Below are positions 1 through 39,783 of a DNA stretch of 40,291 nt, in pieces. The notes under the pieces were generated by a model, which saw only the letters and a list, made by a program, of their open reading frames with translations, was not told the origin of the DNA and ran no database searches. The stretch lies in sequence record NC_047777.1. One strand, written 5' to 3'. Both the position numbers and the translations under genes were made by a program. This stretch comes from Escherichia phage ZG49. Each line of letters opens with the position of its first letter. The first letter of the stretch is position 1.

Positions 1-401
1 CCTAAGGCTTGCACCGATGGAAGGAGGGTGATATTAATCATAATCCCTCCAATACAGATAGTCACCGACCATAGATACAGGAGGTATGTAGCATATGGCA
101 AAGACCAAAGCTGTACTTAAAGCTCTGGCGACCAATCGAGCTACATACAGGTTTCTTGCTGCTGTTCTACTTGCTGCTGGCGTTACTGCTGGAAGTAAGT
201 GGGTCGGGTGGGTCGAGACTCTCGTATGTTCTCTGGTGTCTCAGTGTAATTAACGCAATCATGGTAACGATTCATGAGCGGAAGACCTAAGGTCAGTACG
301 TGGATAAAGACTCACTCTACTGACCTTAGCTACTGTAGTCAAGGACTTTAGGTAACACCTTAATAGAAGCTCACCTAGGGTCATCCTACTTATTGGTCTA
401 T
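1..401. repeat. Left direct terminal repeat, identical to 39891-40291
   Basis: Bases 1-401 read identically to 39891-40291; window begins and ends exactly on the repeat; T7-like genomes carry direct terminal repeats. Confidence 0.8.
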
Positions 402-1118: not shown

Positions 1119-1309
1119 GTACCACATCAACACGAAACAACGGTGACGACCAACACTGAAACGGTCTACCTGAAGTCCTCTGACTGAAGGGAATGCTCTT
1201 TAACAATCTGGATAAACTCTTAATGTGCGCCGATAGCGACTAACTACAGGGTCTTTGAGTCTACATCTGAAGGCCCTGACTGATAGTCACTAACTAAAGG
1301 ATAAACAAG

Positions 1310-1834
1310 ATGAAACTGATAGGCAAAGGCGCGTTCACTAAGTGCTACCTGAAGGATTGCGGAAAGCGTGTACTTCTGGTCTCTTCAGACCCAATCAAGG
1401 AGTGTATGGCGTGGGGATGGTTCCCTGAGTCTTCACTGTTCCCTGAAGTCAAGATGATTGAGGTGGGCACGTATGAGATGGACTACATGCCACCAACACG
1501 AGGTCTCAAGGCGCATTTAGATGACGACCAGTGGCAACTCTATCAGGTGCTGCGAGATTGCTTCTCACGGTCTCCGGTATTCTCTCGACCTGCTGACCTG
1601 TATCACAAGTGGTACGAGATATTCCAAGCTGCACACGACAGGTCTGAGACCGAGACTGTGCGGGAAGGTCTGATGGATGTACTGATGGCGCTGGACGCTT
1701 GCGCTAACTTCGGGTCTGACATTCAGTTTGAGATAAGCCCACGAAATGTACGGGCTGTGAATGGTAAGCTGATACTAGTGGATTGTTTCTTCCTTGTGTC
1801 CAAGCTGCCAGAGGTGAGGGCGTTAAGATGGTAA
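1310..1834 (+). CDS. gp0.7-like serine/threonine protein kinase (kinase domain only, 174 aa)
   Basis: Glycine-rich loop IGKGAFTKCY resembles T7 gp0.7 LGNGHFSAAY; further similarity (VLRDCF, ILVDCFF); RBS AAGGA upstream; first gene after early promoters. Confidence 0.7.
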   Translation: MKLIGKGAFTKCYLKDCGKRVLLVSSDPIKECMAWGWFPESSLFPEVKMIEVGTYEMDYMPPTRGLKAHLDDDQWQLYQVLRDCFSRSPVFSRPADLYHKWYEIFQAAHDRSETETVREGLMDVLMALDACANFGSDIQFEISPRNVRAVNGKLILVDCFFLVSKLPEVRALRW

Positions 1835-2289
1835 CTTATGGTCTCTGCCAGCACCACGTCACCAACGCCCGGCTTATGGTCGAGACCGGGCAGTTAGACC
1901 ACGAGATGACGACCAGTGGCAACTCTATCAGGTGCTGCGAGATTGCTTCTCACGGTCTCCGGTATTCTCTCGACCTGCTGACCTGTATCACAAGTGGTAC
2001 GAGATATTCCAAGCTGCACACGACAGGTCTGAGACCGAGACTGTGCGGGAAGGTCTGATGGATGTACTGATGGCGCTGGACGCTTGCGCTAACTTCGGGT
2101 CTGACATTCAGTTTGAGATAAGCCCACGAAATGTACGGGCTGTGAATGGTAAGCTGATACTAGTGGATTGTTTCTTCCTTGTGTCCAAGCTGCCAGAGGT
2201 GAGGGCGTTAAGATGGTAACTTATGGTCTCTGCCAGCACCACGTCACCAACGCCCGGCTTATGGTCGAGACCGGGCAGTTAGACCACGA
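1520..2289. repeat. Tandem duplication A: two identical 385-bp copies (1520-1904, 1905-2289)
   Basis: Direct reading; ORFs 1310-1834 and 1932-2219 share an identical C-terminal 95 aa; 1783-2058 and 2168-2362 share their N-terminus. Confidence 0.9.
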
Positions 2290-3069: not shown

Positions 3070-3076
3070 TTATGAC

Positions 3077-3094
3077 TTAACTATCACTATAGGA
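3077..3094 (+). promoter_or_regulatory. Phage RNAP promoter TTAACTATCACTATAGGA, upstream of the RNAP gene
   Basis: Matches the 18-bp consensus found at 10 other intergenic sites; predicted +1 at the first G of TATAGG. Confidence 0.65.
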
Positions 3095-3166
3095 CTCAAG
3101 GTCTAAGACTCCAAGTGAAAGACCAAAGAGACTCTAAGTGAAAGACTAATAACAAGGACTTTAAGT

Positions 3167-6174: not shown

Positions 6175-6182
6175 TTAGACTC

Positions 6183-6209
6183 AAGGTCATGACTCAAAGT
6201 CGTGGCCTT
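6183..6209 (+). promoter_or_regulatory. RNA hairpin (12-bp stem with G-U pairs, 3-nt loop); candidate RNase III processing site (R1.1-like)
   Basis: AAGGUCAUGACU / AGUCGUGGCCUU pair fully; motif AGACTCAAGGTCAT...GTGGCCTT..ATGATTA recurs at 13549 and 37381. Confidence 0.5.
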
Positions 6210-6246
6210 CATGATTAACCTAACTCATTCAATCAGGAGCTACACC

Positions 6247-7783: not shown

Positions 7784-7820
7784 TGCTAGCAAGCTATCGT
7801 CTGGGCCACAAGCCTGACCC

Positions 7821-7838
7821 TAAGCTATCACTATAGGA
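7821..7838 (+). promoter_or_regulatory. Phage RNAP promoter TAAGCTATCACTATAGGA
   Basis: One mismatch to consensus; intergenic. Confidence 0.65.
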
Positions 7839-7867
7839 CAACCATAACTCGACCTAAGGAGGCCGAC

Positions 7868-8122
7868 ATGTTTAAGAACTTAATGTTCAATCGTTATACC
7901 AGTACATTCCACCTGTCTCACAACCCATTAGCTTGCATTAAGCGCAACGAGAAGCTGGGCTACTTCGGGAAGGCCGTTAAGCTGTCACCTACAGTCTTCG
8001 CTCTGATTACTCCGGGCAAAGCTGAAGAGGCTCGCCAGAAGCGTGCGACCCACGTACCTGTGGTCTACACTAAGTGGCCTCGAGTTCGTCTGTTCGTTGA
8101 GTTCGTGAAGGAGGTGTTCTGA
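7868..8122 (+). CDS. gp1.6-like hypothetical protein (84 aa)
   Basis: RBS AAGGAGG; position between ligase and gp1.7. Confidence 0.5.
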   Translation: MFKNLMFNRYTSTFHLSHNPLACIKRNEKLGYFGKAVKLSPTVFALITPGKAEEARQKRATHVPVVYTKWPRVRLFVEFVKEVF

Positions 8123-8854
8123 TGGGATGTATAGCTTGCTTAGAGAAACCAGAGGTAACTCCTACAGATGACCAACCTTCCACTGAGTCAATCGACGCTG
8201 TCCGCAAGCCGTCCCACTATCAGGTATTTGACGGAGTGGAGTCCATTGAGATTATCGCTCGGTCCATGACTGTCAGCGAGTTCCGTGGGTTCTGCATGGG
8301 TAACGTCCTGAAGTATCGACTCCGAGCTGGTAAGAAGTCCGAGCTGGCTACTATGGAGAAGGACCTGAACAAAGCGGACTTCTATCAGGAGCTGTTCGAC
8401 CTGAGCTGGGCTACTTCGGGAAGGCCGTTAAGCTGTCACCTACAGTCTTCGCTCTGATTACTCCGGGCAAAGCTGAAGAGGCTCGCCAGAAGCGTGCGAC
8501 CCACGTACCTGTGGTCTACACTAAGTGGCCTCGAGTTCGTCTGTTCGTTGAGTTCGTGAAGGAGGTGTTCTGATGGGATGTATAGCTTGCTTAGAGAAAC
8601 CAGAGGTAACTCCTACAGATGACCAACCTTCCACTGAGTCAATCGACGCTGTCCGCAAGCCGTCCCACTATCAGGTATTTGACGGAGTGGAGTCCATTGA
8701 GATTATCGCTCGGTCCATGACTGTCAGCGAGTTCCGTGGGTTCTGCATGGGTAACGTCCTGAAGTATCGACTCCGAGCTGGTAAGAAGTCCGAGCTGGCT
8801 ACTATGGAGAAGGACCTGAACAAAGCGGACTTCTATCAGGAGCTGTTCGACCTG
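7953..8854. repeat. Tandem duplication B: two identical 451-bp copies (7953-8403, 8404-8854)
   Basis: Direct reading; ORFs 8122-8457 and 8573-8881 share their first 94 aa. Confidence 0.9.
8122..8457 (+). pseudogene. Chimeric gp1.7 copy created by duplication B (native C-terminus replaced by out-of-frame gp1.6 sequence)
   Basis: Identical to 8573-8881 until ...QELFDL, then diverges at the duplication junction. Confidence 0.6.
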
Positions 8855-9976: not shown

Positions 9977-10426
9977 ATGAGTAGAGGACATCAAGTAGGT
10001 GCTTATCGCTCTGGACTCGAAGCAAAGAACCAAGAGTGGCTTGAGAAGAATGGCGTAAAAGCTGAATACGAAGCATATAAAATAGGCTACGTAGTACCAT
10101 CCAGCGACCACTTCTACACACCAGATTTTATCCTTCCTAACGGTATCATCGTGGAGACCAAAGGTCTCTTCGATAGTGATGACCGTAAGAAGCACCTTCT
10201 GGTACGAGAACAGCACCCTGAGTTAGACATTCGGTTCGTGTTCTCAAGTTCACGCTCCAAGTTATACAAGGGGTCTCCGACCACGTATGGCGCATGGTGC
10301 GAAAAGAACGGCTTTAAGTTTGCCGACAAGTTTATCCCGGTTGAGTGGCTGAGAGAGGTGACTGTACGTCTACCTTCAGGTATTCTCATCCCCAAGAAGA
10401 AAGGAGTTAAGGATATTCGCACCTAA
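9977..10426 (+). CDS. Endonuclease I (gp3-like Holliday junction resolvase, 149 aa from ATG 9977)
   Basis: Strong similarity to T7 gp3 (GAYRSGLE, YTPDF, PNGI.VETKGL..SDDRKKHLL.REQHPELDIR.VFSSSR.KLYKGSPT); track ORF starts earlier at 9920. Confidence 0.85.
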   Translation: MSRGHQVGAYRSGLEAKNQEWLEKNGVKAEYEAYKIGYVVPSSDHFYTPDFILPNGIIVETKGLFDSDDRKKHLLVREQHPELDIRFVFSSSRSKLYKGSPTTYGAWCEKNGFKFADKFIPVEWLREVTVRLPSGILIPKKKGVKDIRT

Positions 10427-11009
10427 AGCGAGACCCTTAAGTTTATGGCTGAAAAATACTCAGTAAGTGAGACAACCATAAGTCGAATCAGGAACAACAA
10501 GAGGTGGAAATAATAATGGGAAGTAAAGTACAATTCATGCCACGCAAGTCAACTGACGCTATCTTCGTTCACTGTTCGGCTACCAAGCCAGAGATGGACA
10601 TCGGGGTAGAGACCATCCGTATGGTGTTCTCAAGTTCACGCTCCAAGTTATACAAGGGGTCTCCGACCACGTATGGCGCATGGTGCGAAAAGAACGGCTT
10701 TAAGTTTGCCGACAAGTTTATCCCGGTTGAGTGGCTGAGAGAGGTGACTGTACGTCTACCTTCAGGTATTCTCATCCCCAAGAAGAAAGGAGTTAAGGAT
10801 ATTCGCACCTAAAGCGAGACCCTTAAGTTTATGGCTGAAAAATACTCAGTAAGTGAGACAACCATAAGTCGAATCAGGAACAACAAGAGGTGGAAATAAT
10901 AATGGGAAGTAAAGTACAATTCATGCCACGCAAGTCAACTGACGCTATCTTCGTTCACTGTTCGGCTACCAAGCCAGAGATGGACATCGGGGTAGAGACC
11001 ATCCGTATG
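10238..11009. repeat. Tandem duplication C: two identical 386-bp copies (10238-10623, 10624-11009)
   Basis: Direct reading; ORF 10504-10812 has the lysozyme N-terminus fused to the endonuclease I C-terminus. Confidence 0.9.
10504..10812 (+). pseudogene. Chimeric ORF: lysozyme N-terminal 40 aa fused to endonuclease I C-terminal 62 aa
   Basis: N-terminus identical to 10890-11360 and C-terminus identical to 9920-10426; switch at the duplication junction. Confidence 0.6.
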
Positions 11010-15789: not shown

Positions 15790-16116
15790 ATGGGAGGTGT
15801 AGCAACCTTACGCTTCCATAAGATGCCTACTGGATGTATCGTCTGTGTATCACATCGTCGAAACCATGATGGATACTTTCGGTACACGGTAGGCTCTGCC
15901 CGTAAGCCTGGACGCAAGGCGTTTATGTTCCACCGATGGGTGTGGGAACAGAAGCGTGGGCCTATACCAGATGGCTATGAGATAGACCATTTGTGTTTGA
16001 ATCGTGGGTGCTGTAACGTAGAACATCTACAATGTATTCCAAAGCGTGATCACGTCATCAAGACGAACCGTGAGCGCAAACTTATTAAGAAGGAGAAGAC
16101 TAATGGCTATTACTAA
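15790..16116 (+). CDS. HNH family endonuclease (108 aa)
   Basis: H-N-H type motif region HRWVWE...DHLCLNRGCCNVEHL...H; immediately after DNAP. Confidence 0.75.
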   Translation: MGGVATLRFHKMPTGCIVCVSHRRNHDGYFRYTVGSARKPGRKAFMFHRWVWEQKRGPIPDGYEIDHLCLNRGCCNVEHLQCIPKRDHVIKTNRERKLIKKEKTNGYY

Positions 16117-16292
16117 ACGTATTCGTGTAAGTTTCGACCTGAAGATGGTTGTTAGCTCAAAGAAAGAAGAGACCAGGCCCTGAGTCTGCCCTTGAAATTG
16201 CCATCAAGAAGGCCGTCAAGGAGGAGCTGGTAGATGCCTTTGATGATGACCAGTTCGGCGTGTCCAACCTGCGATTCGAGGTCAAGCAATGA
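16103..16292 (+). pseudogene. gp5.5-like gene interrupted by a +1 frame change (26-aa N-terminal ORF 16103-16183, remainder open in the next frame to 16292)
   Basis: N-terminus MAITKRIRVSFD resembles T7 gp5.5 MAMTKKFKVSFD (from memory); stop after 26 codons; adjacent frame open to the gp5.7 start. Confidence 0.4.
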
Positions 16293-16498
16293 GTGAATAC
16301 TTACGGGTCCTAGCGGCCCTTAAGTCCTGCCCGAAGACCTTCCAGTCTAACTATGTGCGCAATAACGCTGCACTTGTGGCTGAGGCTGCGAGTCGTGGAC
16401 ATCTAAGCTGCCTGTCTATGGATGGGCGTAACAACGGTGCGTGGGAGATTACCGCTGCTGGCACCAAGTTCCTGAACCAACACGGAGGCTGTCTGTGA
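16289..16498 (+). CDS. gp5.7-like protein (69 aa)
   Basis: Same length and position as T7 gp5.7; ATG overlaps upstream stop. Confidence 0.5.
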   Translation: MSEYLRVLAALKSCPKTFQSNYVRNNAALVAEAASRGHLSCLSMDGRNNGAWEITAAGTKFLNQHGGCL

Positions 16499-16947
16499 AG
16501 ATACCTGAAAGTCTGAAAGAGCTGGTCCTTGAAATGGGTGAATTCGATAAGGAGCACCGCAAGTACGGTGAGTTCTACGCATCTTGGTCATTCACCCTGA
16601 CTGAGAAGGACGTTGAGGCCTACGCCGAGTCTCCCGCTGAGGTTTATGAGTGGCGTCCGTTCATCGGACTGACCATCGTAGCTAGCGGTATGTGGGATGA
16701 CGGATACGGCTCAGAGGTAAACGACTGGGACGTATATCGCCAAGTTGAGAAGGAGACCGAAATGTCTTCCAACTTCTGGAGCCTGATGTCACACCTCAAC
16801 TCAGAGGATAATGACATGGCCCATGAGTTCGCCAACAAATGGCTGAAGCCTGAGGTGACTCTCGAACGTATTGAGGAGCCGAAAGTTTCCTTGATGCCAG
16901 CTACGGTAGCTATGGCTACAGGAGGTCTGGACGATGACTTCGAATAA
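16495..16947 (+). CDS. Strongly acidic hypothetical protein (about 150 aa), gp5.9-like position
   Basis: GTG at 16495 after GGAGG overlapping upstream stop; large excess of D/E over K/R. Confidence 0.45.
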   Translation: MKIPESLKELVLEMGEFDKEHRKYGEFYASWSFTLTEKDVEAYAESPAEVYEWRPFIGLTIVASGMWDDGYGSEVNDWDVYRQVEKETEMSSNFWSLMSHLNSEDNDMAHEFANKWLKPEVTLERIEEPKVSLMPATVAMATGGLDDDFE

Positions 16948-17803
16948 GAAGATAGCTCTGGTTCTGGATGGTGACTATCTGGTCTTCTCTTCTATGGCTG
17001 CTGCCGAGGACGAGACAGACTGGGGTGATGACATCTGGACCCTTATCTGCGACCACGCCAAGGCTCGTCGTATCCTTGAGAACACCATCGCTGAAATCGT
17101 TAAGAAGCGCAAGGCGTGGAAAGACGCTAAGATTGTGATGTGCTTCACCGACGATTACAACTGGCGTAAGGACGTTCTGCCAACCTATAAGGCCAACCGT
17201 AAAGGTTCCCGCAAGCCTGTAGGTTACAAGAAGTTCGTAGCCGAAGTGATGGCTGACCCACGGTTCAACAGCTTCCTGCGTCCTACGCTTGAAGGTGATG
17301 ACTGTATGGGTATCATCGGGACCCGACCTCAGATTGTTGACTGTGATCATGCGGTTCTGGTGTCCTGTGACAAGGACTTCAAGACCATCCCGAACTGTGA
17401 GTTCTTCTGGTTAACCACTGGTGAAATCCTGAGTCATACGACTGCTGAGGCAGACTATTGGCACATGGAGCAGACCATCAAGGGTGACACTACAGATGGC
17501 TATGGTGGTATTCCGGGGATGGGTGAGGACACCACTCGTGCGTTCCTTGACGAGCCGTACTACTTCGTGCAGGAGAGCCGTGAGCTTAAGACTGGCAAGA
17601 ACAAAGGCCAGATTAAGACCGAATGGAAGAAGTATCCGAAGCGTGAAGACATGACGCTGTGGGACTGCATGGTTACACTGGCTGCTAAGGCTGGCATGAC
17701 CGAGGAGGAACTTCTGGTCCAAGCTCAGGTCGCTCGTATTTGTCGAGCATCTGACTATGACCCTAAGTCCAAGGAGGTCATCCTATGGACACCACCCATG
17801 TAA
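16934..17803 (+). CDS. 5'-3' exonuclease (gp6-like)
   Basis: 289 aa versus T7 gp6 300 aa; conserved position; RBS AGGAGG. Confidence 0.85.
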   Translation: MTSNKKIALVLDGDYLVFSSMAAAEDETDWGDDIWTLICDHAKARRILENTIAEIVKKRKAWKDAKIVMCFTDDYNWRKDVLPTYKANRKGSRKPVGYKKFVAEVMADPRFNSFLRPTLEGDDCMGIIGTRPQIVDCDHAVLVSCDKDFKTIPNCEFFWLTTGEILSHTTAEADYWHMEQTIKGDTTDGYGGIPGMGEDTTRAFLDEPYYFVQESRELKTGKNKGQIKTEWKKYPKREDMTLWDCMVTLAAKAGMTEEELLVQAQVARICRASDYDPKSKEVILWTPPM

Positions 17804-17877: not shown

Positions 17878-17931
17878 GTCTAGCCGATAGTCATATCCTA
17901 TCAATCCAACAGTCATCCATAGGTGAAACAC

Positions 17932-17950
17932 TAAACTATCACTATAGGGA
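17932..17950 (+). promoter_or_regulatory. Phage RNAP promoter TAAACTATCACTATAGGGA (phi6.5-like)
   Basis: Exact consensus; intergenic. Confidence 0.7.
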
Positions 17951-19210: not shown

Positions 19211-20779
19211 ATGGCTGAACGTGAAGGGTTCGCTGCTGAAGGAGCCAAAGCGGTCTATGACCGACTGAAGAACGGTAGACAGCCATATGAGACACGCGCT
19301 CAGAACTGTGCTGCTGTCACTATCCCGTCACTGTTTCCTAAGGAGTCCGACAACTCGTCTACTGAGTACACAACTCCGTGGCAAGCTGTAGGTGCTCGCT
19401 GTTTGAACAACTTGGCTGCAAAGCTGATGTTGGCATTATTCCCTCAGTCACCGTGGATGCGACTGACAGTCTCCGAATATGAGGCCAAGACCTTGAGTCA
19501 GGACTCAGAGGCTGCTGCTCGTGTTGACGAAGGGCTGGCTATGGTCGAGCGTGTGTTGATGGCCTACATGGAGACTAACAGTTTCCGTGTCCCACTGTTC
19601 GAAGCTCTGAAGCAGCTTATCGTCTCCGGTAACTGTCTGCTCTACATTCCAGAGCCTGAACAAGGTACTTACAGTCCTATGCGAATGTACCGCTTAGTGT
19701 CCTACGTTGTTCAACGTGATGCTTTCGGTAATATCTTGCAGATTGTGACTCTCGACAAGGTAGCGTTTAGTGCTCTACCGGAAGACGTTAAGTCACAACT
19801 CAACGCAGACGACTATGAGCCTGACACAGAGCTGGAAGTATATACGCACATCTACCGTCAAGACGACGAGTATCTACGTTATGAAGAAGTGGAAGGCATT
19901 GAGGTAGCAGGGACCGAGGGTTCCTACCCACTGACTGCATGTCCATACATCCCGGTACGAATGGTTCGACTGGATGGTGAAGACTATGGTCGTTCTTACT
20001 GCGAGGAGTATCTGGGAGACCTGAACTCGCTGGAGACGATTACAGAAGCTATCACCAAAATGGCTAAGGTAGCCTCCAAGGTGGTGGGCCTCGTTAACCC
20101 GAACGGTATCACGCAACCTCGTCGTCTGAACAAGGCGGCTACAGGTGAGTTCGTTGCCGGTCGCGTTGAGGACATCAACTTCCTGCAACTGACTAAGGGT
20201 CAGGACTTTACGATTGCCAAGTCGGTGGCTGATGCTATCGAGCAACGTTTAGGCTGGGCCTTCCTTCTTAATAGTGCTGTTCAGCGTAATGCCGAGCGAG
20301 TCACTGCTGAAGAGATTCGTTATGTTGCTGGCGAACTGGAGGCGACCTTAGGTGGCGTGTACTCAGTACAATCCCAAGAGCTTCAGTTACCTATCGTCCG
20401 TGTGCTGATGAACCAACTTCAGTCTGCTGGCATGATTCCTGACCTTCCGAAAGAAGCGGTAGAGCCTACTGTCTCCACTGGTCTGGAAGCGTTAGGTCGT
20501 GGTCAGGACTTGGAGAAGCTAACTCAGGCGGTTAACATGATGACTGGTCTTCAGCCGCTATCTCAGGACCCGGACATCAACTTGCCGACCCTTAAGCTAC
20601 GACTCCTGAACGCTCTGGGTATCGACACCGCTGGCCTACTCCTGACGCAAGACGAGAAGATTCAGCGCATGGCTGAGCAGTCGTCTCAACAGGCAGTTGT
20701 CCAAGGTGCTAGTGCTGCTGGTGCTAACATGGGTGCTGCTGTAGGTCAGGGAGCTGGTGAGGACATGGCTCAAGCCTAA
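19211..20779 (+). CDS. Head-to-tail connector / portal protein (gp8-like)
   Basis: 522 aa versus T7 gp8 536 aa; conserved position before scaffold and capsid; RBS AAGGAGG. Confidence 0.9.
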   Translation: MAEREGFAAEGAKAVYDRLKNGRQPYETRAQNCAAVTIPSLFPKESDNSSTEYTTPWQAVGARCLNNLAAKLMLALFPQSPWMRLTVSEYEAKTLSQDSEAAARVDEGLAMVERVLMAYMETNSFRVPLFEALKQLIVSGNCLLYIPEPEQGTYSPMRMYRLVSYVVQRDAFGNILQIVTLDKVAFSALPEDVKSQLNADDYEPDTELEVYTHIYRQDDEYLRYEEVEGIEVAGTEGSYPLTACPYIPVRMVRLDGEDYGRSYCEEYLGDLNSLETITEAITKMAKVASKVVGLVNPNGITQPRRLNKAATGEFVAGRVEDINFLQLTKGQDFTIAKSVADAIEQRLGWAFLLNSAVQRNAERVTAEEIRYVAGELEATLGGVYSVQSQELQLPIVRVLMNQLQSAGMIPDLPKEAVEPTVSTGLEALGRGQDLEKLTQAVNMMTGLQPLSQDPDINLPTLKLRLLNALGIDTAGLLLTQDEKIQRMAEQSSQQAVVQGASAAGANMGAAVGQGAGEDMAQA

Positions 20780-20794
20780 ACTATCACTATAGGA
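20777..20794 (+). promoter_or_regulatory. Phage RNAP promoter TAAACTATCACTATAGGA (phi9-like)
   Basis: Exact consensus. Confidence 0.7.
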
Positions 20795-20875
20795 ACTTAG
20801 ACAAGATTCACAAAGCATTAGGCCGGGTGAGACTCCCGGTCGGTTCCTATCATCAACTTAAAGGAGAATGACTCA

Positions 20876-21760
20876 ATGTCTCAATCAGTTTATGCCGAGT
20901 TCGGCGTTAGCTCTAATGCAATCACTGGTTCCGTTGAGGACCTGAACGAACACCAGAAGTCTATGCTTGAACAGGACGTATCGGTTCGTGATGGCGACGA
21001 TGCTATTACCTTCAAGCAACTGGAAGCTGAAACCGAAGAGGCTACCGAAGAAGACGATGACGTCGACGAGACTGAAGGTGAAGAAGACCACGAGTCCGAT
21101 GACGAAGAGTCTGAGACCGATGGTGAGCAGCCTGAGTTCATCGAACTAGGTGATGCACCGAAAGAGCTGACTGAAAGTGTCACCGCTCTGGATGAAAACG
21201 AAGCTGCATTTGACGACATGGTGTCTTCTGCTGTAGAAGCTGGCAAGGTCACTGCTGATGAAATTACCGCTATCAAGGCTGAATACGCCAAGGACGGTAA
21301 GCTGTCTGACGCATCCTACGCTAAGTTGCAGGAAGCAGGTTACACCAAGCGTTTCGTAGATTCGTTTGTCCGTGGTCAGGAAGCTCTTGCTGAACAGTAT
21401 GCTGCTGGTGTGGTTCGCTACGCTGGTGGTGCTGAACAGTTTAATCGCATCCTGTCACACCTTGAGTCCAACGACCCGTCAACTCGTGAAGCACTGGAAG
21501 CTGCTATCGTTCGTAAGGACATTGCGACTACCAAAGCTCTGCTGAATCTGGCTGGCAAGACTCTGGGTAAAGCTGTAGGTGTTAAACCTCAGCGAACCAT
21601 CACCACTCAGGCTAAACCTGTGGTCGCACCTAAGGCTCCTCAGACCGAAGCATTCAGCTCCAAGGCTGACATGATTAAGGCTATGAGTGACCCGCGCTAC
21701 CTGCGTGACGCTAAGTACACGATGGAAGTTCGCGCCAAGGTAGCTGCCTCAAGCCTGTAG
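20876..21760 (+). CDS. Capsid assembly scaffolding protein (gp9-like)
   Basis: Highly acidic N-terminal half; position between portal and capsid. Confidence 0.8.
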   Translation: MSQSVYAEFGVSSNAITGSVEDLNEHQKSMLEQDVSVRDGDDAITFKQLEAETEEATEEDDDVDETEGEEDHESDDEESETDGEQPEFIELGDAPKELTESVTALDENEAAFDDMVSSAVEAGKVTADEITAIKAEYAKDGKLSDASYAKLQEAGYTKRFVDSFVRGQEALAEQYAAGVVRYAGGAEQFNRILSHLESNDPSTREALEAAIVRKDIATTKALLNLAGKTLGKAVGVKPQRTITTQAKPVVAPKAPQTEAFSSKADMIKAMSDPRYLRDAKYTMEVRAKVAASSL

Positions 21761-21763
21761 GAC

Positions 21764-21781
21764 TAAACTATCACTATAGGA
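21764..21781 (+). promoter_or_regulatory. Phage RNAP promoter TAAACTATCACTATAGGA (phi10-like)
   Basis: Exact consensus directly upstream of the capsid gene. Confidence 0.75.
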
Positions 21782-21885
21782 GACCAAGAGACAGACTCAA
21801 GGTTCCCCTATTACTTCAGTCCATACGGATTGGGCGTACAGCAAGTAATAAACTTTATCTTTCAATTGAATAGGAGAATTATCAT

Positions 21886-23770: not shown

Positions 23771-26127
23771 TGCCACTAATTACTCAATCAATCAAGAACC
23801 TTAAGGGTGGCATTAGCCAACAGCCTGACATACTGAGGTTCTCAGACCAAGGCGAGTCACAGGTTAACTGCTGGTCATCAGAGAGTGATGGCCTCCAGAA
23901 GCGTCCACCTACAGTCTTCAAGCGACGTCTTAACATCGACGTTGGGAGCAACCCTAAGTTCCACCTGATTAACCGTGATGAGCATGAGCAGTATTACATC
24001 GTGTTCAATGGGTCCAACATTCAGGTAGTTGACTTGAGTGGTAATCAATACTCAGTGTCCGGTGCGGTAGATTACGTTAAGTCCTCCAACCCACGAGATG
24101 ACATCCGTGTCGTTACCGTGGCAGACTATACGTTCGTCGTTAACCGTAAGGTTGTCGTCAAAGGTGGAAGCGAGAAGTCACACTCTGGTTATAACCGCAA
24201 AGCACGAGCTTTAATTAACCTGCGTGGTGGGCAGTATGGTCGAACCCTTAAGGTGGGAATCAACGGTGGCGTCAAGGTCTCGCATAAGCTACCAGCAGGT
24301 AATGATGCCGAGAATGACCCACCTAAGGTGGACGCTCAAGCCATTGGTGCAGCTCTGAGAGACCTTCTTGTTCAGTCCTATCCTGACTTCACGTTTGACC
24401 TTGGGTCTGGCTTCCTGCTAATCACAGCTCCTTCAGGGACCGACATTAACTCAGTGGAGACGGAGGATGGCTACGCTAACCAGCTAATAAGCCCAGTCCT
24501 AGACACTGTGCAGACAATCTCTAAACTACCTCTTGCCGCTCCTAATGGGTATATCATTAAGATTCAAGGTGAAACAAACAGTAGCGCCGATGAATACTAC
24601 GTGATGTATGACTCCAACACTAAGACGTGGAAGGAGACAGTGGAGCCGGGAGTTGTCACTGGGTTCGATAACACCACAATGCCACACGCTCTGGTACGAC
24701 AATCTGATGGCTCCTTTGAGTTCAAGACTCTGGATTGGTCCAAGCGTGGTGCTGGTAACGATGACACAAACCCTATGCCTAGCTTCGTGGATGCTGCGAT
24801 TAATGATGTGTTCTTCTACAGGAACAGGCTAGGGTTCTTGTCGGGTGAGAACGTAATCATGAGCCGTTCAGCCAGCTACTTTGCGTTCTTCCCTAAGAGT
24901 GTGGCGACACTGAGTGATGGTGACCCTATTGATGTAGCTGTAAGTCACCCTCGAATCTCAATCCTTAAGTATGCCGTTCCGTTTAGTGAGCAGCTACTAC
25001 TTTGGTCGGATGAGGTTCAGTTCGTGATGACAAGCTCTGGGGTCCTTACCTCGAAGTCTATCCAGCTTGATGTAGGCTCAGAGTTTGCCTTAGGTGATAA
25101 TGCCAGACCGTTCGCTGTAGGACGCTCAGTCTTCTTCTCAGCTCCTCGTGGGTCATTCACCAGCATTAAGCGATACTTCGCTGTAGCTGATGTGTCTGAT
25201 GTGAAGGATGCTGATGATACAACCGGTCACGTATTGTCCTACATCCCTAACGGGGTGTTTGATATTCAAGGTACAGGGACTGAGAACTACATCTGCGTCA
25301 ACTCTACAGGTGCATACAACCGTATCTACATCTACAAGTTCTTGTTTAAGGACGGCGTACAGCTTCAAGCCTCTTGGTCACACTGGGAGTTCCCTAAAGA
25401 TGATAAGATTCTGGCGTCTGCTTCTATTGGCTCTACCATGTTCATCGTTCGTCAGCATCAAGGAGGGGTAGACATTGAGCACCTTAAGTTCATCAAGGAG
25501 GCAACTGACTTCCCGTCAGAGCCATATAGACTACACATTGACTCCAAGGTGTCTATGGTAATTCCAATTGGCTCATATAATGCTGACACCTATAAGACTA
25601 CGGTTGACATTGGTGCTGCTTATGGTGGCAACGCTCCGTCTCCCGGTCGGTACTATCTGATTGACAGTCAGGGTGCGTATGTGGACCTTGGGGACTTGAC
25701 CAGTATCTCTACTGTGATTACCCTCAACGGCGATTGGTCAGGACGTACAGTGTTCATCGGACGGCCCTATCTGATGTCCTACAAGTTCTCACGGTTCCTG
25801 ATTAAGATTGAAGATGATAGGGGCACTCAGTCTGAAGACACTGGTCGTCTACAGCTTCGTCGGGCTTGGGTAAACTACAAGGACACTGGCGCTCTGAGAC
25901 TCATTGTCAGAAACGGTGAGCGGGAGTTCGTGAACACCTTTAACGGGTACACCCTTGGTCAGCAAACCATCGGGACTACAAACATCGGTGACGGGCAGTA
26001 TCGCTTCGCTATGAATGGTAACGCATTAACCACGAGTCTAACCTTAGAGTCCGACTATCCTACCCCAGTGTCAATCGTTGGTTGTGGCTGGGAGGCGTCA
26101 TACGCTAAGAAAGCTCGTTCCGTTTAA
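23770..26127 (+). CDS. Tail tubular protein B (gp12-like)
   Basis: 785 aa versus T7 gp12 794 aa; conserved position; start overlaps gp11 stop. Confidence 0.9.
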   Translation: MPLITQSIKNLKGGISQQPDILRFSDQGESQVNCWSSESDGLQKRPPTVFKRRLNIDVGSNPKFHLINRDEHEQYYIVFNGSNIQVVDLSGNQYSVSGAVDYVKSSNPRDDIRVVTVADYTFVVNRKVVVKGGSEKSHSGYNRKARALINLRGGQYGRTLKVGINGGVKVSHKLPAGNDAENDPPKVDAQAIGAALRDLLVQSYPDFTFDLGSGFLLITAPSGTDINSVETEDGYANQLISPVLDTVQTISKLPLAAPNGYIIKIQGETNSSADEYYVMYDSNTKTWKETVEPGVVTGFDNTTMPHALVRQSDGSFEFKTLDWSKRGAGNDDTNPMPSFVDAAINDVFFYRNRLGFLSGENVIMSRSASYFAFFPKSVATLSDGDPIDVAVSHPRISILKYAVPFSEQLLLWSDEVQFVMTSSGVLTSKSIQLDVGSEFALGDNARPFAVGRSVFFSAPRGSFTSIKRYFAVADVSDVKDADDTTGHVLSYIPNGVFDIQGTGTENYICVNSTGAYNRIYIYKFLFKDGVQLQASWSHWEFPKDDKILASASIGSTMFIVRQHQGGVDIEHLKFIKEATDFPSEPYRLHIDSKVSMVIPIGSYNADTYKTTVDIGAAYGGNAPSPGRYYLIDSQGAYVDLGDLTSISTVITLNGDWSGRTVFIGRPYLMSYKFSRFLIKIEDDRGTQSEDTGRLQLRRAWVNYKDTGALRLIVRNGEREFVNTFNGYTLGQQTIGTTNIGDGQYRFAMNGNALTTSLTLESDYPTPVSIVGCGWEASYAKKARSV

Positions 26128-26154
26128 CTTATTGAATGGCCTATAGATTTACCT

Positions 26155-26173
26155 TAACTATCACTATAGGGAC
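26155..26173 (+). promoter_or_regulatory. Phage RNAP promoter TTAACTATCACTATAGGGA (phi13-like)
   Basis: Consensus match; intergenic. Confidence 0.7.
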
Positions 26174-32600: not shown

Positions 32601-33512
32601 ACTGGTAGTAAGCGTAAGTTCGATGACCGCTGGCTTAAGACCGCTGGTATCTCTGACGAGCAGTGGAAGGGCATTAAGTCCCTAATCCGTGAGTCAGTGA
32701 CTCGTGGTCCAGACGGGAAGTACACCATCAAGGATAAGAAGGCGTTCAGTCAGGACCCAAGGGCTATGGACCTATGGCGTATGGGTGACACCATCGCAGA
32801 TGAAACGTTACTCCGTCCTCATAAGCTGTCCAACATGGACGCCAAGGCTTATGGTCCTCTCGCTAAGACTGTCCTTCAGTTTAAGAACTTCGTCATCAAG
32901 TCCATCAATGGTCGAACCATGCGAACATTCTATAACGCCACGAAGAACAACCGAGCGATGGACGCTGCACTGTCTACTGTGATGTCTATGGGTCTGGCTG
33001 GTATCTACTACATGGCTCAGGCGCACGTCAAGGCTTACGCTATGCAGGACGGTCGAGACCGAGATTATCTCAAGCAAGCTCTGGACCCAACGATGATTGG
33101 CTATGCGGCCCTGTCCCGTAGTTCACATCTGGGTGGACCACTTGGGGTAGCTAACATTCTAGGTGGCATCGCTGGGTATGAGGACACTAAGATGCTCCGT
33201 TCGTCTATCCTCCCGCGTTCACCTACAGAGAAACCCGAACGTGCCATCCCATATGGTGCGGCTACAAGTGACCCTGTGATGAATGTCGTTGGTAACTTCT
33301 TGGAGCAGGTCCCGGCTTTCGGCTATGCTGCTAACGTTGGCGCTTCGGCATACAACTTGGCTGGCTACCTCAAGGCTGATACTCGTGTCAACGAGCGGGA
33401 CTACATGACCGGGATGTATAATACGTTCCGTGAACTGGTTCCGAACGACCCCATTACCCAGAAGTTGCTGCTTGGAACGTTTGAGGAGCAAGGTATCCAC
33501 ATCAAGGACTAA
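29625..33512 (+). CDS. Internal virion protein D (gp16-like) with a divergent N-terminal domain
   Basis: From about residue 190 onward colinear with T7 gp16 (RSTFFGF, TPTRWN, VVTGGSP.NL, RLEARETARN, LVRSPTGMQSGASGK, NSFLEARNLFDSD, RRVNGDIAIM, LLNGTTNYLLDA, RAMDLWR, YALSRSS); first about 145 aa unlike the T7 transglycosylase domain; ATG 29625. Confidence 0.9.
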   Translation: MATRGIRNNNPGNIRVGKDQWEGMTGDDGAFVTFDSPESGVRALGKNLLSYGRQGYDSIEKIINRWAPPNENDTKAYIDSVVAATGIPATQSLDLSDHDTLSSLAQAISFHETGSRYDPEVYQKGVARALNGISPKTPPVSANVFDALTEGLKAKPKVALGENLPTAAGLNIEGQAPEAPNESFGEMFYKSTGDTMQEREDRSTWFGFGAATEAEVKNSMVGVAIRAGKTEDSLDVIGDVFNPTRWNNHKWTREELDQIRNAGVLPQYYGVITGGSPQNLTELINLALENQKLDQEKAKAGTGAQLAAGVIGAGVDPLTYVPIAGQVGKGGKLVNKMFTVAAQSGALAGVSEMARTSVAGGDAHVAEAILGGALFGGGMTAIADGLGRALGRNTNEFAGPATRLEARETARNVDGQDLSRLPIQEGEQTFSHQGVKFADVPNEPGSVRLEDGSILIGENPLNPKTRQVFDEVIEPERAAAGVNLGGLTEIGLKLLRSENPEIRGVAADLVRSPTGMQSGASGKIGTTASDVFERLRAVDHRFYNDIDDAVTEALKDPYFQTAFWRDSGAFRQDIYQRVSMAIEDGSGNLKAELTPGELKVYDLLKNQFDAKREMMENPAMFGRPDAQSIFPGSRFKGTYVPHVYSNQMKELYIKELGSPEALQEAIKKSWLTSYASRPEVKKRVDEALLEADPTLTPEGLAAAVDKYANDKAYGISHTEQFERSSVMEENINGLVGLENNSFLEARNLFDSDMSIVLPNGQTFSVNNLREWDMDKIVPAYNRRVNGDIAIMAGTGKTTKEMKDLVETMMNKAGDDGKLKGEVSTLRDTLKILTGRSRRDGADDAAFATVMRTMTDLSFFAKNAYMGVQNLTEIGGMLARGNVRAMLHGVPIFRDLAFRNKKVGASEIKDLHNVLFGKELDDSIRPSKQDVIDRLRSYSDLGRGTATALGTAKYYTGELAVRSPFTKVLNGTTNYLLDAGRQGFLSDIVEHSLTGSKRKFDDRWLKTAGISDEQWKGIKSLIRESVTRGPDGKYTIKDKKAFSQDPRAMDLWRMGDTIADETLLRPHKLSNMDAKAYGPLAKTVLQFKNFVIKSINGRTMRTFYNATKNNRAMDAALSTVMSMGLAGIYYMAQAHVKAYAMQDGRDRDYLKQALDPTMIGYAALSRSSHLGGPLGVANILGGIAGYEDTKMLRSSILPRSPTEKPERAIPYGAATSDPVMNVVGNFLEQVPAFGYAANVGASAYNLAGYLKADTRVNERDYMTGMYNTFRELVPNDPITQKLLLGTFEEQGIHIKD

Positions 33513-33527
33513 ACTATCACTATAGGA
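33510..33527 (+). promoter_or_regulatory. Phage RNAP promoter TAAACTATCACTATAGGA (phi17-like)
   Basis: Exact consensus upstream of the tailspike gene. Confidence 0.75.
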
Positions 33528-33576
33528 AACGGGAGGCGCTACCATAGGTCTCCGTTTAAATAACAAAGGAGGCATA

Positions 33577-35637
33577 ATGTCCACGATTACACAATTCCCT
33601 TCAGGAAACACTCAGTACAGGATTGAGTTCGACTACCTAGCCAGAACGTTTGTTGTTGTTACGCTGGTGAATAGCTCTAACCCTACCCTGAACCGTGTAC
33701 TGGAAGTTGGTCGAGATTACCGATTCCTTAACCCAACGATGATTGAGATGTTGGTTGACCAATCAGGTTTCGACATCGTTCGTATTCACCGTCAGACTGG
33801 AACTGACTTAGTGGTAGACTTCAGGAATGGCTCAGTGTTGACAGCTAGTGACCTGACCAATTCAGAGCTTCAGGCTATCCATATTGCAGAAGAAGGTCGA
33901 GACCAAACGGTTGACTTAGCGAAGGAATATGCCGATGCTGCTGGTAGCTCTGCTGGCAACGCTAAGGATAGCGAGGACGAAGCACGCCGAATCGCTGCGA
34001 GTATCAGGGAAGCTGGTCTAATTGGCTATATTACCCGTCGCTCCTTCGAGAAAGGCTACAACGTTACAACATGGAGCGAGGTCCTGCTATGGGAAGAGGA
34101 TGGTGATTATTACCGCTGGGATGGTACGCTTCCAAAGAACGTTCCTGCTGGTTCAACTCCTGAAACTTCCGGTGGGATTGGATTAGGTGCGTGGGTTAGT
34201 GTTGGTGATGCTGCTTTAAGAAGTCAGATTTCAAACCCGGAAGGGGCAATACTCTACCCGGAATTGCAGATGGCAAGATGGCGTGATGAGGGTGATGTTC
34301 GAGGCTGGGGTGCTAAAGGGGATGGTGTAACAGATAGTACGGAGAATATAGCTGCTTCACTAAATTCTCAAAAAGCTGTCGTAGCATCAGAAGGTGTATT
34401 CTCTAGTTCTGGTATTAATAGTAATTACTGTAACTTAGACGGTAGAGGCAGTGGTGTACTAAGTCACCGTTCAAGTACAGGTAACTACTTAGTATTTAAC
34501 AATCTACGCTCAGGTCGCTTAAGTAATATTACGGTAGAAAGTAATAAGGCGACCGATACCACTCAAGGGCAGCAGGTATCTCTTGCTGGTGGCAGTGATG
34601 TTACTATAAGTGATGTTAATTTCTCAAACGTTAAGGGCGCTGGTTTCAGTTTAATCACATACCCTAATGATGCACCCTCTGATGGGCTTATGATTAAAGG
34701 CATTCGAGGTAGCTACTCCGGCTATGCTACTAATAAGGCGGCTGGATGCATACTTGCTGATTCCTCAGTTAACTCCCTCATAAATAACGTCATTGCTAAG
34801 AACTACCCTCAGTTCGGGGCTGTAGAACTGAAAGGTACAGCCAGTTATAACATAGTCAGCAATGTTATAGGGGCAGACTGCCAGCATGTAACTTACAACG
34901 GTACAGAAGGGTCAATAGCTCCCTCTAACAACCTTATCAATGGGGTAGTGGCTAATAATCCTAAATATGCAGCGGTTGTTGCAGGCAAAGGTAGTACCAA
35001 CTTAATCTCCGATGTGCTTGTAGATTTCTCAACCTCTGATGCTAGGCAGGCTCATGGTGTTACAGTAGAAGGTTCTGATAACGTCATAAATAATGTGCTT
35101 ATGTCAGGGTGTGATGGTACTAACTCTTTAGGGCAAGCTCAGACTGCTACAATTGCGCGCTTTATAGATACGGCTAATAACAACTATGCGTCTGTATTTC
35201 CTAGCTACAGTGCTACAGGTGTTATTACTTTCGAATCAGGTTCTACCCGTAACTTCGTAGAGGTAAAGCATCCGGGAAGGAGAAACGACCTTCTCAGTGC
35301 TACTGGTACTATTGAAGGTAAAGTTACTATTGACGGCACTAGTAATAGCAACGTAGTGCACGCTCCTGCATTAGGACAGTACATAGGCAGTATGTCCGGT
35401 AGGTTCGAATGGCGGATTAAGTCCATGTCACTTCCGTCAGGCGTTCTTACCTCGGCTGATAAGTACAGAATGCTTGGGGATGGTGCTGTGTCATTAGCTG
35501 TAGGTGGGGGTACTTCTTCTCAAGTTCGCCTATTTACTTCTGATGGTACTTATCGGACAGTATCACTCACCAACGGTAACGTGCGTCTTCCTACCAGTAG
35601 CACAGGTTATTTGCAGTTAGGTTCTAGCTCCCTCTAA
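33577..35637 (+). CDS. Tailspike (gp17-like), N-terminal 686-aa fragment truncated by tandem duplication D
   Basis: N-terminal 150 aa resemble the T7 gp17 adaptor domain (EFDYLARTFVVVTL, DYRF, VDFRNGSVL.ASDL, IAEEGRD); then a beta-helix-like region (WGAKGDGVTD); reading frame breaks at the duplication junction at 35625. Confidence 0.8.
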   Translation: MSTITQFPSGNTQYRIEFDYLARTFVVVTLVNSSNPTLNRVLEVGRDYRFLNPTMIEMLVDQSGFDIVRIHRQTGTDLVVDFRNGSVLTASDLTNSELQAIHIAEEGRDQTVDLAKEYADAAGSSAGNAKDSEDEARRIAASIREAGLIGYITRRSFEKGYNVTTWSEVLLWEEDGDYYRWDGTLPKNVPAGSTPETSGGIGLGAWVSVGDAALRSQISNPEGAILYPELQMARWRDEGDVRGWGAKGDGVTDSTENIAASLNSQKAVVASEGVFSSSGINSNYCNLDGRGSGVLSHRSSTGNYLVFNNLRSGRLSNITVESNKATDTTQGQQVSLAGGSDVTISDVNFSNVKGAGFSLITYPNDAPSDGLMIKGIRGSYSGYATNKAAGCILADSSVNSLINNVIAKNYPQFGAVELKGTASYNIVSNVIGADCQHVTYNGTEGSIAPSNNLINGVVANNPKYAAVVAGKGSTNLISDVLVDFSTSDARQAHGVTVEGSDNVINNVLMSGCDGTNSLGQAQTATIARFIDTANNNYASVFPSYSATGVITFESGSTRNFVEVKHPGRRNDLLSATGTIEGKVTIDGTSNSNVVHAPALGQYIGSMSGRFEWRIKSMSLPSGVLTSADKYRMLGDGAVSLAVGGGTSSQVRLFTSDGTYRTVSLTNGNVRLPTSSTGYLQLGSSSL

Positions 35638-36333
35638 CAACCTTATCAATGGGGTAGTGGCTAATAATCCTAAATATGCAGCGGTTGTTGCAGGCAAAGG
35701 TAGTACCAACTTAATCTCCGATGTGCTTGTAGATTTCTCAACCTCTGATGCTAGGCAGGCTCATGGTGTTACAGTAGAAGGTTCTGATAACGTCATAAAT
35801 AATGTGCTTATGTCAGGGTGTGATGGTACTAACTCTTTAGGGCAAGCTCAGACTGCTACAATTGCGCGCTTTATAGATACGGCTAATAACAACTATGCGT
35901 CTGTATTTCCTAGCTACAGTGCTACAGGTGTTATTACTTTCGAATCAGGTTCTACCCGTAACTTCGTAGAGGTAAAGCATCCGGGAAGGAGAAACGACCT
36001 TCTCAGTGCTACTGGTACTATTGAAGGTAAAGTTACTATTGACGGCACTAGTAATAGCAACGTAGTGCACGCTCCTGCATTAGGACAGTACATAGGCAGT
36101 ATGTCCGGTAGGTTCGAATGGCGGATTAAGTCCATGTCACTTCCGTCAGGCGTTCTTACCTCGGCTGATAAGTACAGAATGCTTGGGGATGGTGCTGTGT
36201 CATTAGCTGTAGGTGGGGGTACTTCTTCTCAAGTTCGCCTATTTACTTCTGATGGTACTTATCGGACAGTATCACTCACCAACGGTAACGTGCGTCTTCC
36301 TACCAGTAGCACAGGTTATTTGCAGTTAGGTTC
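34916..36333. repeat. Tandem duplication D: two identical 709-bp copies (34916-35624, 35625-36333) inside the tailspike gene
   Basis: Direct reading; ORFs 33577-35637 and 35657-36817 share about 230 identical residues. Confidence 0.9.
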
Positions 36334-37376: not shown

Positions 37377-37387
37377 GTGTTAGACTC

Positions 37388-37414
37388 AAGGTCATTACTA
37401 TATGTAGTGGCCTT
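37388..37414 (+). promoter_or_regulatory. RNA hairpin (10-bp stem); candidate RNase III site (R18.5-like)
   Basis: AAGGUCAUUA / UAGUGGCCUU; same flanking motif as 6183 and 13556. Confidence 0.45.
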
Positions 37415-37477
37415 TATGGTTAACACTAACTAGTGGAGGCGACTCTACGTGAAATCTGATAAACCGGGAGGACAACT

Positions 37478-39687: not shown

Positions 39688-39783
39688 CTGAATGAATAAC
39701 TATAGGCGAAAACTGAATTAATAAGCAGTTAGTAACCTATAGTTACTACCAGTCTAACCTACTGTTTTACAAGGAGTTTGGAC

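What the first reader, a model, noticed from the sequence alone, without database searches (positions are those of the whole stretch)
16103..16292. gp5.5-like gene interrupted by a frame change
The N-terminus resembles T7 gp5.5 but stops after 26 codons (TGA 16181-16183), while the next frame stays open to 16292 and overlaps the gp5.7 start. This could be a sequencing indel, a pseudogene, or programmed recoding; a gp5.5-5.7 fusion product is noted in T7 annotation as I recall.
Basis: partly seen in the sequence, partly recalled or inferred. Interest (0 to 1): 0.4.

Follow-up and report, generated by a model that had tools for sequence, protein, structure and literature searches.

The report
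Gene 5.5 broken by 95-bp deletion
In this T7-like (Kayfunavirus) phage genome the small H-NS-inhibitor gene 5.5 changes frame because 95 bases found in every relative are missing, so it is an ordinary broken gene or an assembly fault, not programmed recoding.

Summary
An ATG at 16103 opens a gp5.5-like frame that stops at TGA 16181-16183 after 26 codons. The +1 frame then stays open to TGA 16290-16292, which overlaps the gene 5.7 ATG at 16289.

The cause is a 95-bp deletion, not a single-base indel. Every relative examined has an uninterrupted gene 5.5 of 285-288 nt (94-96 aa). The window keeps gene nt 1-73 and 167-285, joined at a 2-nt "CA". Because 95 mod 3 = 2, the frame changes. The junction was found in no other sequence searched.

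The two retained pieces are otherwise intact, with 3 private substitutions and no extra stops. So the event is recent or artefactual.

By chance the junction creates AGG_CCC_UGA, a known +1 "shifty stop". It is not conserved, has no stimulator, and has an Arg codon 5' of CCC, which abolished shifting in the published pheL test. Programmed recoding is therefore very unlikely.

T7's annotated "possible gene 5.5-5.7" exists, but it concerns a -1 shift at the 5.5/5.7 overlap, which is a different site.

Caveat: the same window carries four private, perfect tandem duplications. One splits the essential tail-spike gene, so the structural fidelity of this assembly is doubtful.

The parts
15790..16116 (+). 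HNH homing-endonuclease gene between the DNA polymerase gene and gene 5.5 (context). Its last 14 nt overlap the start of gene 5.5.
   Evidence: Pfam HNH_3, E 1.7e-18. The identical protein occurs in IME177. The gene is absent from many relatives, whose matches begin at query position ~306.
16090..16095 (+). Shine-Dalgarno sequence AAGGAG of gene 5.5, 7 nt upstream of the ATG
   Evidence: Read directly from the sequence.
16103..16183 (+). 5' stub of gene 5.5: 24 native codons, then AGG CCC TGA read across the deletion scar
   Evidence: PHROG 1452 profile positions 1-23, E 1.5e-7. Equals gene nt 1-73 of the relatives.
16174..16175 (+). Deletion junction. The dinucleotide CA is shared by both flanks, and 95 bp present in all relatives are missing here.
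   Evidence: Alignment A1 has a 95-column gap. BLAST maps gene nt 1-73 to 16103-16175 and nt 167-285 to 16174-16292. The same -95 appears against four whole genomes.
16175..16183 (+). AGG_CCC_TGA in the zero frame: an accidental +1 'shifty stop' created by the deletion. In relatives the same bases are read as (TC)A GGC CCT GAG.
   Evidence: Sequence, alignment and literature on CCC_UGA (PMC3082878).
16176..16292 (+). 3' remnant of gene 5.5 (codons 57-94 plus stop), now in the +1 frame relative to the ATG at 16103. It has no credible start signal of its own.
   Evidence: PHROG 1452 profile positions 56-101, E 4.3e-6. 92% identical to IME177 gene nt 167-285.
16278..16281 (+). GAGG Shine-Dalgarno sequence of gene 5.7, 7 nt upstream of its ATG
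   Evidence: Read directly from the sequence.
16289..16498 (+). Gene 5.7, intact (69 aa)
   Evidence: ORF list. PHROG 1334, E 7e-39. The identical protein is encoded in very many public contigs.

Best explanation
The frame change is the scar of a 95-bp internal deletion in gene 5.5, the T7-group inhibitor of the host nucleoid protein H-NS.

Intact gene and deletion: in relatives the gene is one 285-nt ORF (94 aa), and its stop overlaps the gene 5.7 start (ATGA). Here nt 74-168 are missing; the bounds are ambiguous by the 2-nt CA. Because 95 is not a multiple of 3, translation from the well-placed SD and ATG at 16103 runs 24 native codons, reads AGG CCC across the scar, and terminates at TGA 16181-16183.

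Consequences: the last 38 codons remain as an untranslated remnant in the +1 frame. As the sequence stands, gene 5.5 is inactivated and only a 26-aa peptide is made. Gene 5.7 is intact and has its own SD, but it has lost the termination-reinitiation overlap with gene 5.5.

What is shown and what is inferred: the deletion, its size and position, its privacy to this sequence, and the otherwise undecayed state of both pieces are shown. Loss of function is inferred. The phenotype is also inferred; in T7 it is poorer growth, especially on lambda lysogens.

Origin: the sequence alone cannot decide whether the deletion happened in the phage or arose in assembly. I put this at roughly even odds, because the same sequence carries four other private structural anomalies.
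For: Size of the gap: all 40 listed relatives match in at least 2 pieces and span about 95 nt more than the query (for example IME177, 816 vs 721 nt). In some searches, four relatives align with a single 95-column gap, and the protein alignment lacks residues 25-57.

Privacy to this sequence: all 25 listed records span 190-191 nt for a 96-nt junction query. In one search, all 57 listed full-coverage records (of 69) carry 285-288 nt where the window has 190. In one search the same -95 event appears against four whole genomes. In some searches, ten contigs encoding the identical gp5.7 all have an open gp5.5 of 94-100 aa. The junction is absent from IMG/VR, and the three hits in metagenomes and GTDB are chance. 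The missing 95 nt are nowhere else in the window.

State of the retained pieces: only 3 private substitutions (T->A, I->V and one synonymous) and no extra stop occur in the retained 190 nt against 10 relatives.

Family identity: PHROG 1452, weak Pfam PF11247 for the intact relative, and T7 gp5.5 vs IME177 gp5.5 at E 4e-7.
Against: No reads are available, so a real deletion cannot be separated from an assembly or record artefact. The junction has only 2 nt of microhomology. From my own knowledge, not checked here, classical T7 deletions usually lie between direct repeats of 5 nt or more. In T7, gene 5.5 clusters with high-essentiality genes in a genome-wide knockout screen (bioRxiv 10.1101/2024.10.10.617714), so its loss should be selected against in nature.
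Confidence: 0.9

Rival explanations
1. Assembly or record artefact. The phage really has an intact 285-nt gene 5.5, and the 95-bp gap was introduced during assembly or handling of the sequence. This accepts the deletion-scar reading but denies that it is biology.
For: The window carries four further private structural anomalies. These are perfect (100%) tandem duplications of 385, 451, 386 and 709 bp, each single-copy in the relatives examined, with 0-1 nt of junction microhomology. The 709-bp duplication splits the tail-spike gene into two incomplete ORFs, covering phrog_14895 profile positions 2-475 and 247-632, which should be lethal. The window also ends in a 401-bp overlap with its own start and does not begin at a physical genome end, so it is an assembled contig. 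The retained gene 5.5 pieces show no decay.
Against: All large genes other than the tail-spike gene split by the 709-bp duplication are open (RNA polymerase, primase-helicase, DNA polymerase, portal, gp15, gp16, terminase), so base-level quality looks good. Short-read assemblers usually collapse perfect tandem repeats rather than create them (my own knowledge). Gene 5.5 is dispensable on some hosts, so a real deletion is possible.
Confidence: 0.45
2. Programmed, or functionally exploited, +1 ribosomal frameshifting at CCC_UGA (16178-16183). This would join the 26-codon stub to the +1 frame and yield a 62-aa 'mini gp5.5'.
For: CCC_UGA is a documented +1 shift-prone 'shifty stop' in E. coli and is used by some phages (PMC3082878). 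A shift there enters exactly the frame that encodes the gp5.5 C-terminus.
Against: The configuration exists only because of the private deletion. In all relatives the same bases are read in frame as GGC CCT GAG. The product would lack 32 central residues and would not be a colinear protein. CCC_UGA alone generally gives no more than 2% shifting, and an Arg codon 5' of CCC made shifting undetectable in the pheL test; here that codon is AGG. There is no SD-like stimulator 3 nt upstream. There is no significant RNA structure (z -0.37) and no Rfam match.
Confidence: 0.03
3. A single-base sequencing indel at about 16165-16185 in an otherwise full-length gene.
For: The net frame change is +1, as a 1-nt insertion would give.
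Against: The locus is 95 nt shorter than in every relative, and the two frames meet exactly at the edges of that gap. Correcting one base would give a 62-aa protein lacking the central third, not a normal gp5.5.
Confidence: 0.01
4. Two genuine small genes: a 26-aa peptide gene and a separate 47-aa gene starting at TTG 16149.
For: Both ORFs exist, and the first has a good SD.
Against: No relative has this arrangement. Each ORF is simply one end of gp5.5. The TTG at 16149 has no recognisable SD.
Confidence: 0.02

Closest known systems
Bacteriophage T7 gene 5.5 protein (Pfam PF11247 Phage_T7_55; PHROG 1452 'Gp5.5-like host HNS inhibition')
   Same: It occupies the same genomic slot, after the DNA polymerase gene (plus an optional HNH gene) and immediately before gene 5.7. 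The N-terminal motif MA-TKR--VSFD and the C-terminal segment are homologous.
   Different: Here the central third (codons 25-56) is deleted and the reading frame is broken, so no full-length member is encoded. The Kayfunavirus allele is only 25% identical to T7 gp5.5 over 77 aligned residues. H-NS binding has been shown only for T7 (PMC8501957).
T7 'possible gene 5.5-5.7' fusion (NC_001604 T7p31; CR44b 5.5-5.7 'putative fusion protein')
   Same: It involves the same pair of genes, and a change of frame is invoked.
   Different: That proposal is a -1 shift at the 5.5 stop / 5.7 start overlap, which would join two complete proteins. Here the change is +1, lies 106 nt upstream inside gene 5.5, and is caused by missing DNA.
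CCC_UGA +1 'shifty stop' frameshifting (E. coli pheL; tail genes of some Listeria phages)
   Same: The hexanucleotide CCC_UGA is present in the zero frame, and the +1 frame is open downstream.
   Different: It is not conserved. It has an unfavourable Arg codon 5' of CCC and no stimulator, and its product would be an internally deleted protein.
Spontaneous deletion mutants of T7-group phages in non-essential or conditionally essential genes
   Same: It is a small internal deletion in a gene that is only conditionally required; in T7 gene 5.5 matters most on lambda lysogens.
   Different: There are only 2 nt of junction homology. It also occurs together with four perfect tandem duplications in the same sequence.

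Membership tests
T7 gp5.5 family (PF11247 / PHROG 1452) | Sequence homology over the whole ~94-101-residue profile | tested here: not met
   The stub matches profile positions 1-23 and the remnant matches 56-101. Positions ~24-55 are absent. The intact relative IME177 matches positions 1-101 (E 1.9e-25).
T7 gp5.5 family (PF11247 / PHROG 1452) | A single uninterrupted ORF of about 94-100 codons whose stop overlaps the gene 5.7 start | tested here: not met
   The ORF stops after 26 codons, and the remainder lies in the +1 frame. Relatives have 285-288 nt ORFs.
T7 gp5.5 family (PF11247 / PHROG 1452) | Genomic position between gene 5 (DNA polymerase) and gene 5.7 | tested here: met
T7 gp5.5 family (PF11247 / PHROG 1452) | Binding and inhibition of host H-NS | not testable with these tools
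   Known only for T7 gp5.5 (PMC8501957). No solved structure was found.
Programmed +1 ribosomal frameshift (shifty-stop type) | [quoted passage not shown] | tested here: met
   CCC_UGA at 16178-16183, with the +1 frame open to 16292.
Programmed +1 ribosomal frameshift (shifty-stop type) | Conservation of the two-frame arrangement among relatives | tested here: not met
   None of the 57 listed full-coverage phage records and none of 10 further contigs has it. The junction is absent from IMG/VR.
Programmed +1 ribosomal frameshift (shifty-stop type) | A stimulatory context (upstream SD-like element, favourable penultimate codon, or RNA structure) | tested here: not met
   The 5' codon is AGG (Arg), which was unfavourable in the pheL test. 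No SD-like element lies 3 nt upstream. The fold z-score is -0.37.
Programmed +1 ribosomal frameshift (shifty-stop type) | A measured frameshift product | not testable with these tools
   Needs a reporter assay or proteomics.
T7-type 5.5-5.7 fusion | A -1 shift at the 5.5 stop / 5.7 start overlap, joining both full proteins | tested here: not met
   The frame change here is +1, at 16175-16183, 106 nt upstream of the overlap at 16289-16292.

The most novel reading that the evidence does not exclude
A private out-of-frame deletion happened to create a CCC_UGA shifty stop exactly where the +1 frame restores the gp5.5 C-terminus. A small percentage of ribosomes would then make a 62-aa 'mini gp5.5' (residues 1-24 + RP + 59-94) that retains some anti-H-NS activity. 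That would be a natural case of a frameshift lesion partly rescued by incidental recoding.
Probability: 0.03. Interest if true: 0.4.

Novelty: already known. Interest (0 to 1): 0.1.

Why it matters
It matters little biologically. A conditionally dispensable host-takeover gene is broken in one genome, and there is no evidence of recoding.

The practical value is for annotation and quality control:
- This locus should be annotated as a disrupted gene 5.5, not as a 26-aa gene or a frameshift-joined CDS.
- The 95-bp deletion, together with four private perfect tandem duplications (one of which splits the tail-spike gene), flags this assembly as structurally unreliable or as a defective genome.

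If the deletion is real, the phage would be predicted to grow poorly on lambda-lysogenic hosts, as T7 gene 5.5 mutants do.

Tried and rejected
-, a BLAST check of the three junction-pattern hits, was invalid because the subject files did not exist under those names. It was redone. L005-L007 match only the 21-23-nt pattern and nothing else in the window, so they are chance matches.
- Exact 31-mer and 39-mer searches flanking the deletion found nothing in IMG/VR.
- Exact-protein look-ups of the window's DNA polymerase and truncated tail-spike ORF found nothing. The source contig and any near-identical sibling are therefore not in those collections, and the immediate ancestor could not be recovered.
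- An ENA contig of exactly 40,291 bp (L020) looked like a possible source but has different local gene content. This is a coincidence.
- L019 (OQ860968) has no called gp5.5 gene, but the frame is open: it carries a divergent allele of 100 codons from a TTG. It is not a second disrupted case.
- The solved-structure search for gp5.5 gave only noise.
- Pfam PF11247 is below threshold even for the intact Kayfunavirus protein (16.8 bits vs 25), so PHROGs was used for family assignment.
- The literature search for T7 deletion junction rules returned nothing usable. That point rests on my own knowledge.
- Structure prediction was not run, because it would not change the verdict.

Full report
**Context.** The window is a complete genome-length contig of a T7-supergroup phage of the genus Kayfunavirus. 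Its closest deposited relative is Enterobacteria phage IME177, at about 96.6% identity over 15 kb. The gene order around the finding is:
- DNA polymerase (ends at 15780)
- an HNH endonuclease (15790-16116; Pfam HNH_3, E 1.7e-18)
- the flagged locus
- gene 5.7 (16289-16498)
- a 149-aa ORF of unknown function
- the gene 6 exonuclease (16934-17803)

**Observation.**
- AAGGAG at 16090-16095 and the ATG at 16103 open a frame reading MAITKRIRVSFDLKMVVSSKKEETRP. It stops at TGA 16181-16183.
- The +1 frame is open up to TGA 16290-16292, which overlaps the gene 5.7 ATG at 16289.
- Both pieces are homologous to gp5.5. The 26-aa stub hits PHROG 1452 ('Gp5.5-like host HNS inhibition') at profile positions 1-23 (E 1.5e-7). 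The +1 ORF hits positions 56-101 (E 4.3e-6).
- The intact Kayfunavirus protein is related to T7 gp5.5 (25% identity over 77 residues, E 4e-7). It reaches Pfam PF11247 only below threshold.

**Cause of the frame change.** It is a 95-bp deletion.
- Every relative matches this region in two pieces and spans about 95 nt more than the window.
- IME177, pO91, SH3 and vB_EcoP-R1 all annotate a 285-nt, 94-aa gene here. Its stop overlaps the gene 5.7 start.
- The DNA alignment shows one clean 95-column gap. The protein alignment shows that residues 25-57 are missing.
- BLAST maps gene nt 1-73 to 16103-16175 and nt 167-285 to 16174-16292. The junction is the shared dinucleotide CA at 16174-16175.
- The missing 95 nt occur nowhere else in the window.
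- Because 95 mod 3 = 2, the downstream part falls into the +1 frame. Restoring one base would give a 62-aa protein without its central third.

**The deletion is private to this sequence.**
- A 96-nt query across the junction matched 67 phage records, and all 25 listed span 190-191 nt.
- A 190-nt query matched 73 records, 69 of them at 80% coverage or more. All 57 listed full-coverage rows carry 285-288 nt.
- The same -95 event appears against four whole genomes.
- Ten metagenomic or NCBI contigs that encode the identical gp5.7 all carry an open gp5.5 of 94-100 codons.
- The junction 21-mer is absent from IMG/VR. Three hits to a degenerate pattern in metagenomes and GTDB genomes are chance (which replaces my faulty).

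**Age of the event.** Against ten relatives, the retained 190 nt carry only three private substitutions (T->A, I->V and one synonymous) and no additional stop or indel. The event is therefore recent on an evolutionary scale, or it is not biological at all.

**Recoding.**
- The scar places AGG_CCC_UGA in the zero frame. CCC_UGA is a well-known +1 'shifty stop' (PMC3082878), and a shift there would enter the frame encoding the C-terminus. That would give a 62-aa product.
- In all relatives the same bases are simply read in frame as GGC CCT GAG. The site is therefore an accident of the deletion.
- The published data say CCC_UGA alone generally gives no more than 2% shifting, and that an arginine codon 5' of CCC made shifting undetectable in pheL. 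Here the 5' codon is AGG.
- No SD-like stimulator lies 3 nt upstream. The local RNA fold is unremarkable (z -0.37), and Rfam finds nothing in the window.
- I put a functional role for recoding at about 3%.

**The T7 '5.5-5.7 fusion'.** NC_001604 lists a 'possible gene 5.5-5.7' and CR44b a 'putative fusion protein'. That proposal is a -1 event at the 5.5 stop / 5.7 start overlap. It is unrelated to this +1 change 106 nt upstream.

**Consequences if the sequence is faithful.**
- Only a 26-aa peptide is made from a good ribosome-binding site.
- The 3' remnant has no credible start, since the TTG at 16149 lacks an SD.
- Gene 5.7 is intact and has its own GAGG 7 nt upstream, but it loses the ATGA coupling to gene 5.5.
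- In T7, gp5.5 binds the oligomerisation domain of H-NS and allows growth on lambda lysogens (PMC8501957). In a genome-wide knockout screen gene 5.5 grouped with high-essentiality genes and mattered most in lambda-lysogenic strains (bioRxiv 10.1101/2024.10.10.617714).
- Loss of function, and a host-dependent fitness cost, are inferences from these T7 data.

**Reliability of the sequence.**
- A self-comparison found four perfect tandem duplications: 1519-1903/1904-2289, 7953-8403/8404-8854, 10238-10623/10624-11009 and 34916-35624/35625-36333. It also found a 401-bp overlap between the two ends of the window.
- Each duplicated segment is single-copy in the relatives examined. The 709-bp segment could be compared only with IME177, because the other relatives carry different tail spikes. 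The junctions have 0-1 nt of microhomology.
- Three of the duplications straddle gene boundaries or gene ends and leave one intact copy of each gene.
- The 709-bp duplication lies inside the tail-spike gene and splits it into two incomplete ORFs, covering phrog_14895 profile positions 2-475 and 247-632. That should be lethal.
- The window does not start at a physical T7-type end, so it is an assembled contig.
- Five private structural changes in one genome, one of them in an essential gene, make it about as likely as not that the gene 5.5 deletion is an assembly or record artefact, or that it belongs to a defective genome. Without reads this cannot be settled.

**Verdict.** The finding is real in the sequence and fully explained by a 95-bp out-of-frame deletion of gene 5.5. 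It is an ordinary disrupted gene or an assembly fault. It is not programmed recoding, and it is not the T7 5.5-5.7 fusion. Interest is low.

Noticed in passing
window 1519-2289, 7953-8854, 10238-11009, 34916-36333: There are four perfect (100%) tandem duplications with units of 385, 451, 386 and 709 bp. Each is single-copy in the relatives examined, and the junctions have 0-1 nt of microhomology. The first three leave one intact copy of every gene they touch.
   Followed up: yes
window 33577-35637 and 35657-36817: The tail-spike gene (843 aa in IME177) is split by the 709-bp duplication into two overlapping, incomplete ORFs of 686 and 386 aa (phrog_14895 profile positions 2-475 and 247-632). 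As written, the genome encodes no complete tail spike.
   Followed up: yes
window 1-401 and 39891-40291: The two ends of the window are identical over 401 bp. The window starts inside the right-end region (a small gene 19.5-like ORF), not at a T7-type physical end. This looks like the overlap of an assembled, circularly closed or concatemeric contig rather than the true terminal repeat.
   Followed up: partly
window 15790-16116: An HNH homing-endonuclease gene is inserted between the DNA polymerase gene and gene 5.5, and it overlaps the gene 5.5 start by 14 nt. The identical protein was found only in IME177. Many relatives lack the gene or have a different insert (a PD-(D/E)XK gene or a 52-aa ORF) in the same slot.
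   Followed up: partly
window 16498-16947: The slot after gene 5.7 (the T7 gene 5.9 position) holds a 149-aa ORF of unknown function (phrog_4382). Relatives have instead an HNH endonuclease (pO91), a Y04K-like 110-111-aa ORF, a DUF7205 ORF, or nothing. This is a mosaic hot spot.
   Followed up: partly
window 3071-3116, 7820-7859, 17902-17948, 20771-20816, 21758-21803, 26124-26170, 33504-33549, 39754-39823: A repeated motif, (T/A)AACTATCACTATAGG(A/G), recurs upstream of gene blocks. These are presumably the phage RNA polymerase promoters.
   Followed up: no
window 1262-1306, 6175-6219, 37380-37424: A 45-nt repeat family (TTAGACTCAAGGTCATGACT...GTGGCCTT.ATG.TTAAC) occurs at three intergenic places. 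It may mark RNase III-type processing hairpins, but this was not examined.
   Followed up: no
Related loci L003, L004, L026, L027 (SH3, vB_EcoP-R1, LET1, SH4) and others listed: Many GenBank records label gene 5.7 as 'HNS binding protein' or 'fusion protein 5.5/5.7'. The H-NS binder characterised in T7 is gp5.5, so these look like propagated misannotations.
   Followed up: no
L020 (ENA ERZ27293808 contig k109_85394): This public contig has exactly the same length as the window (40,291 bp) and encodes the identical gp5.7. Its flanking genes differ and it is only about 80% identical in the polymerase gene. The matching length is a coincidence; it is not the source.
   Followed up: yes
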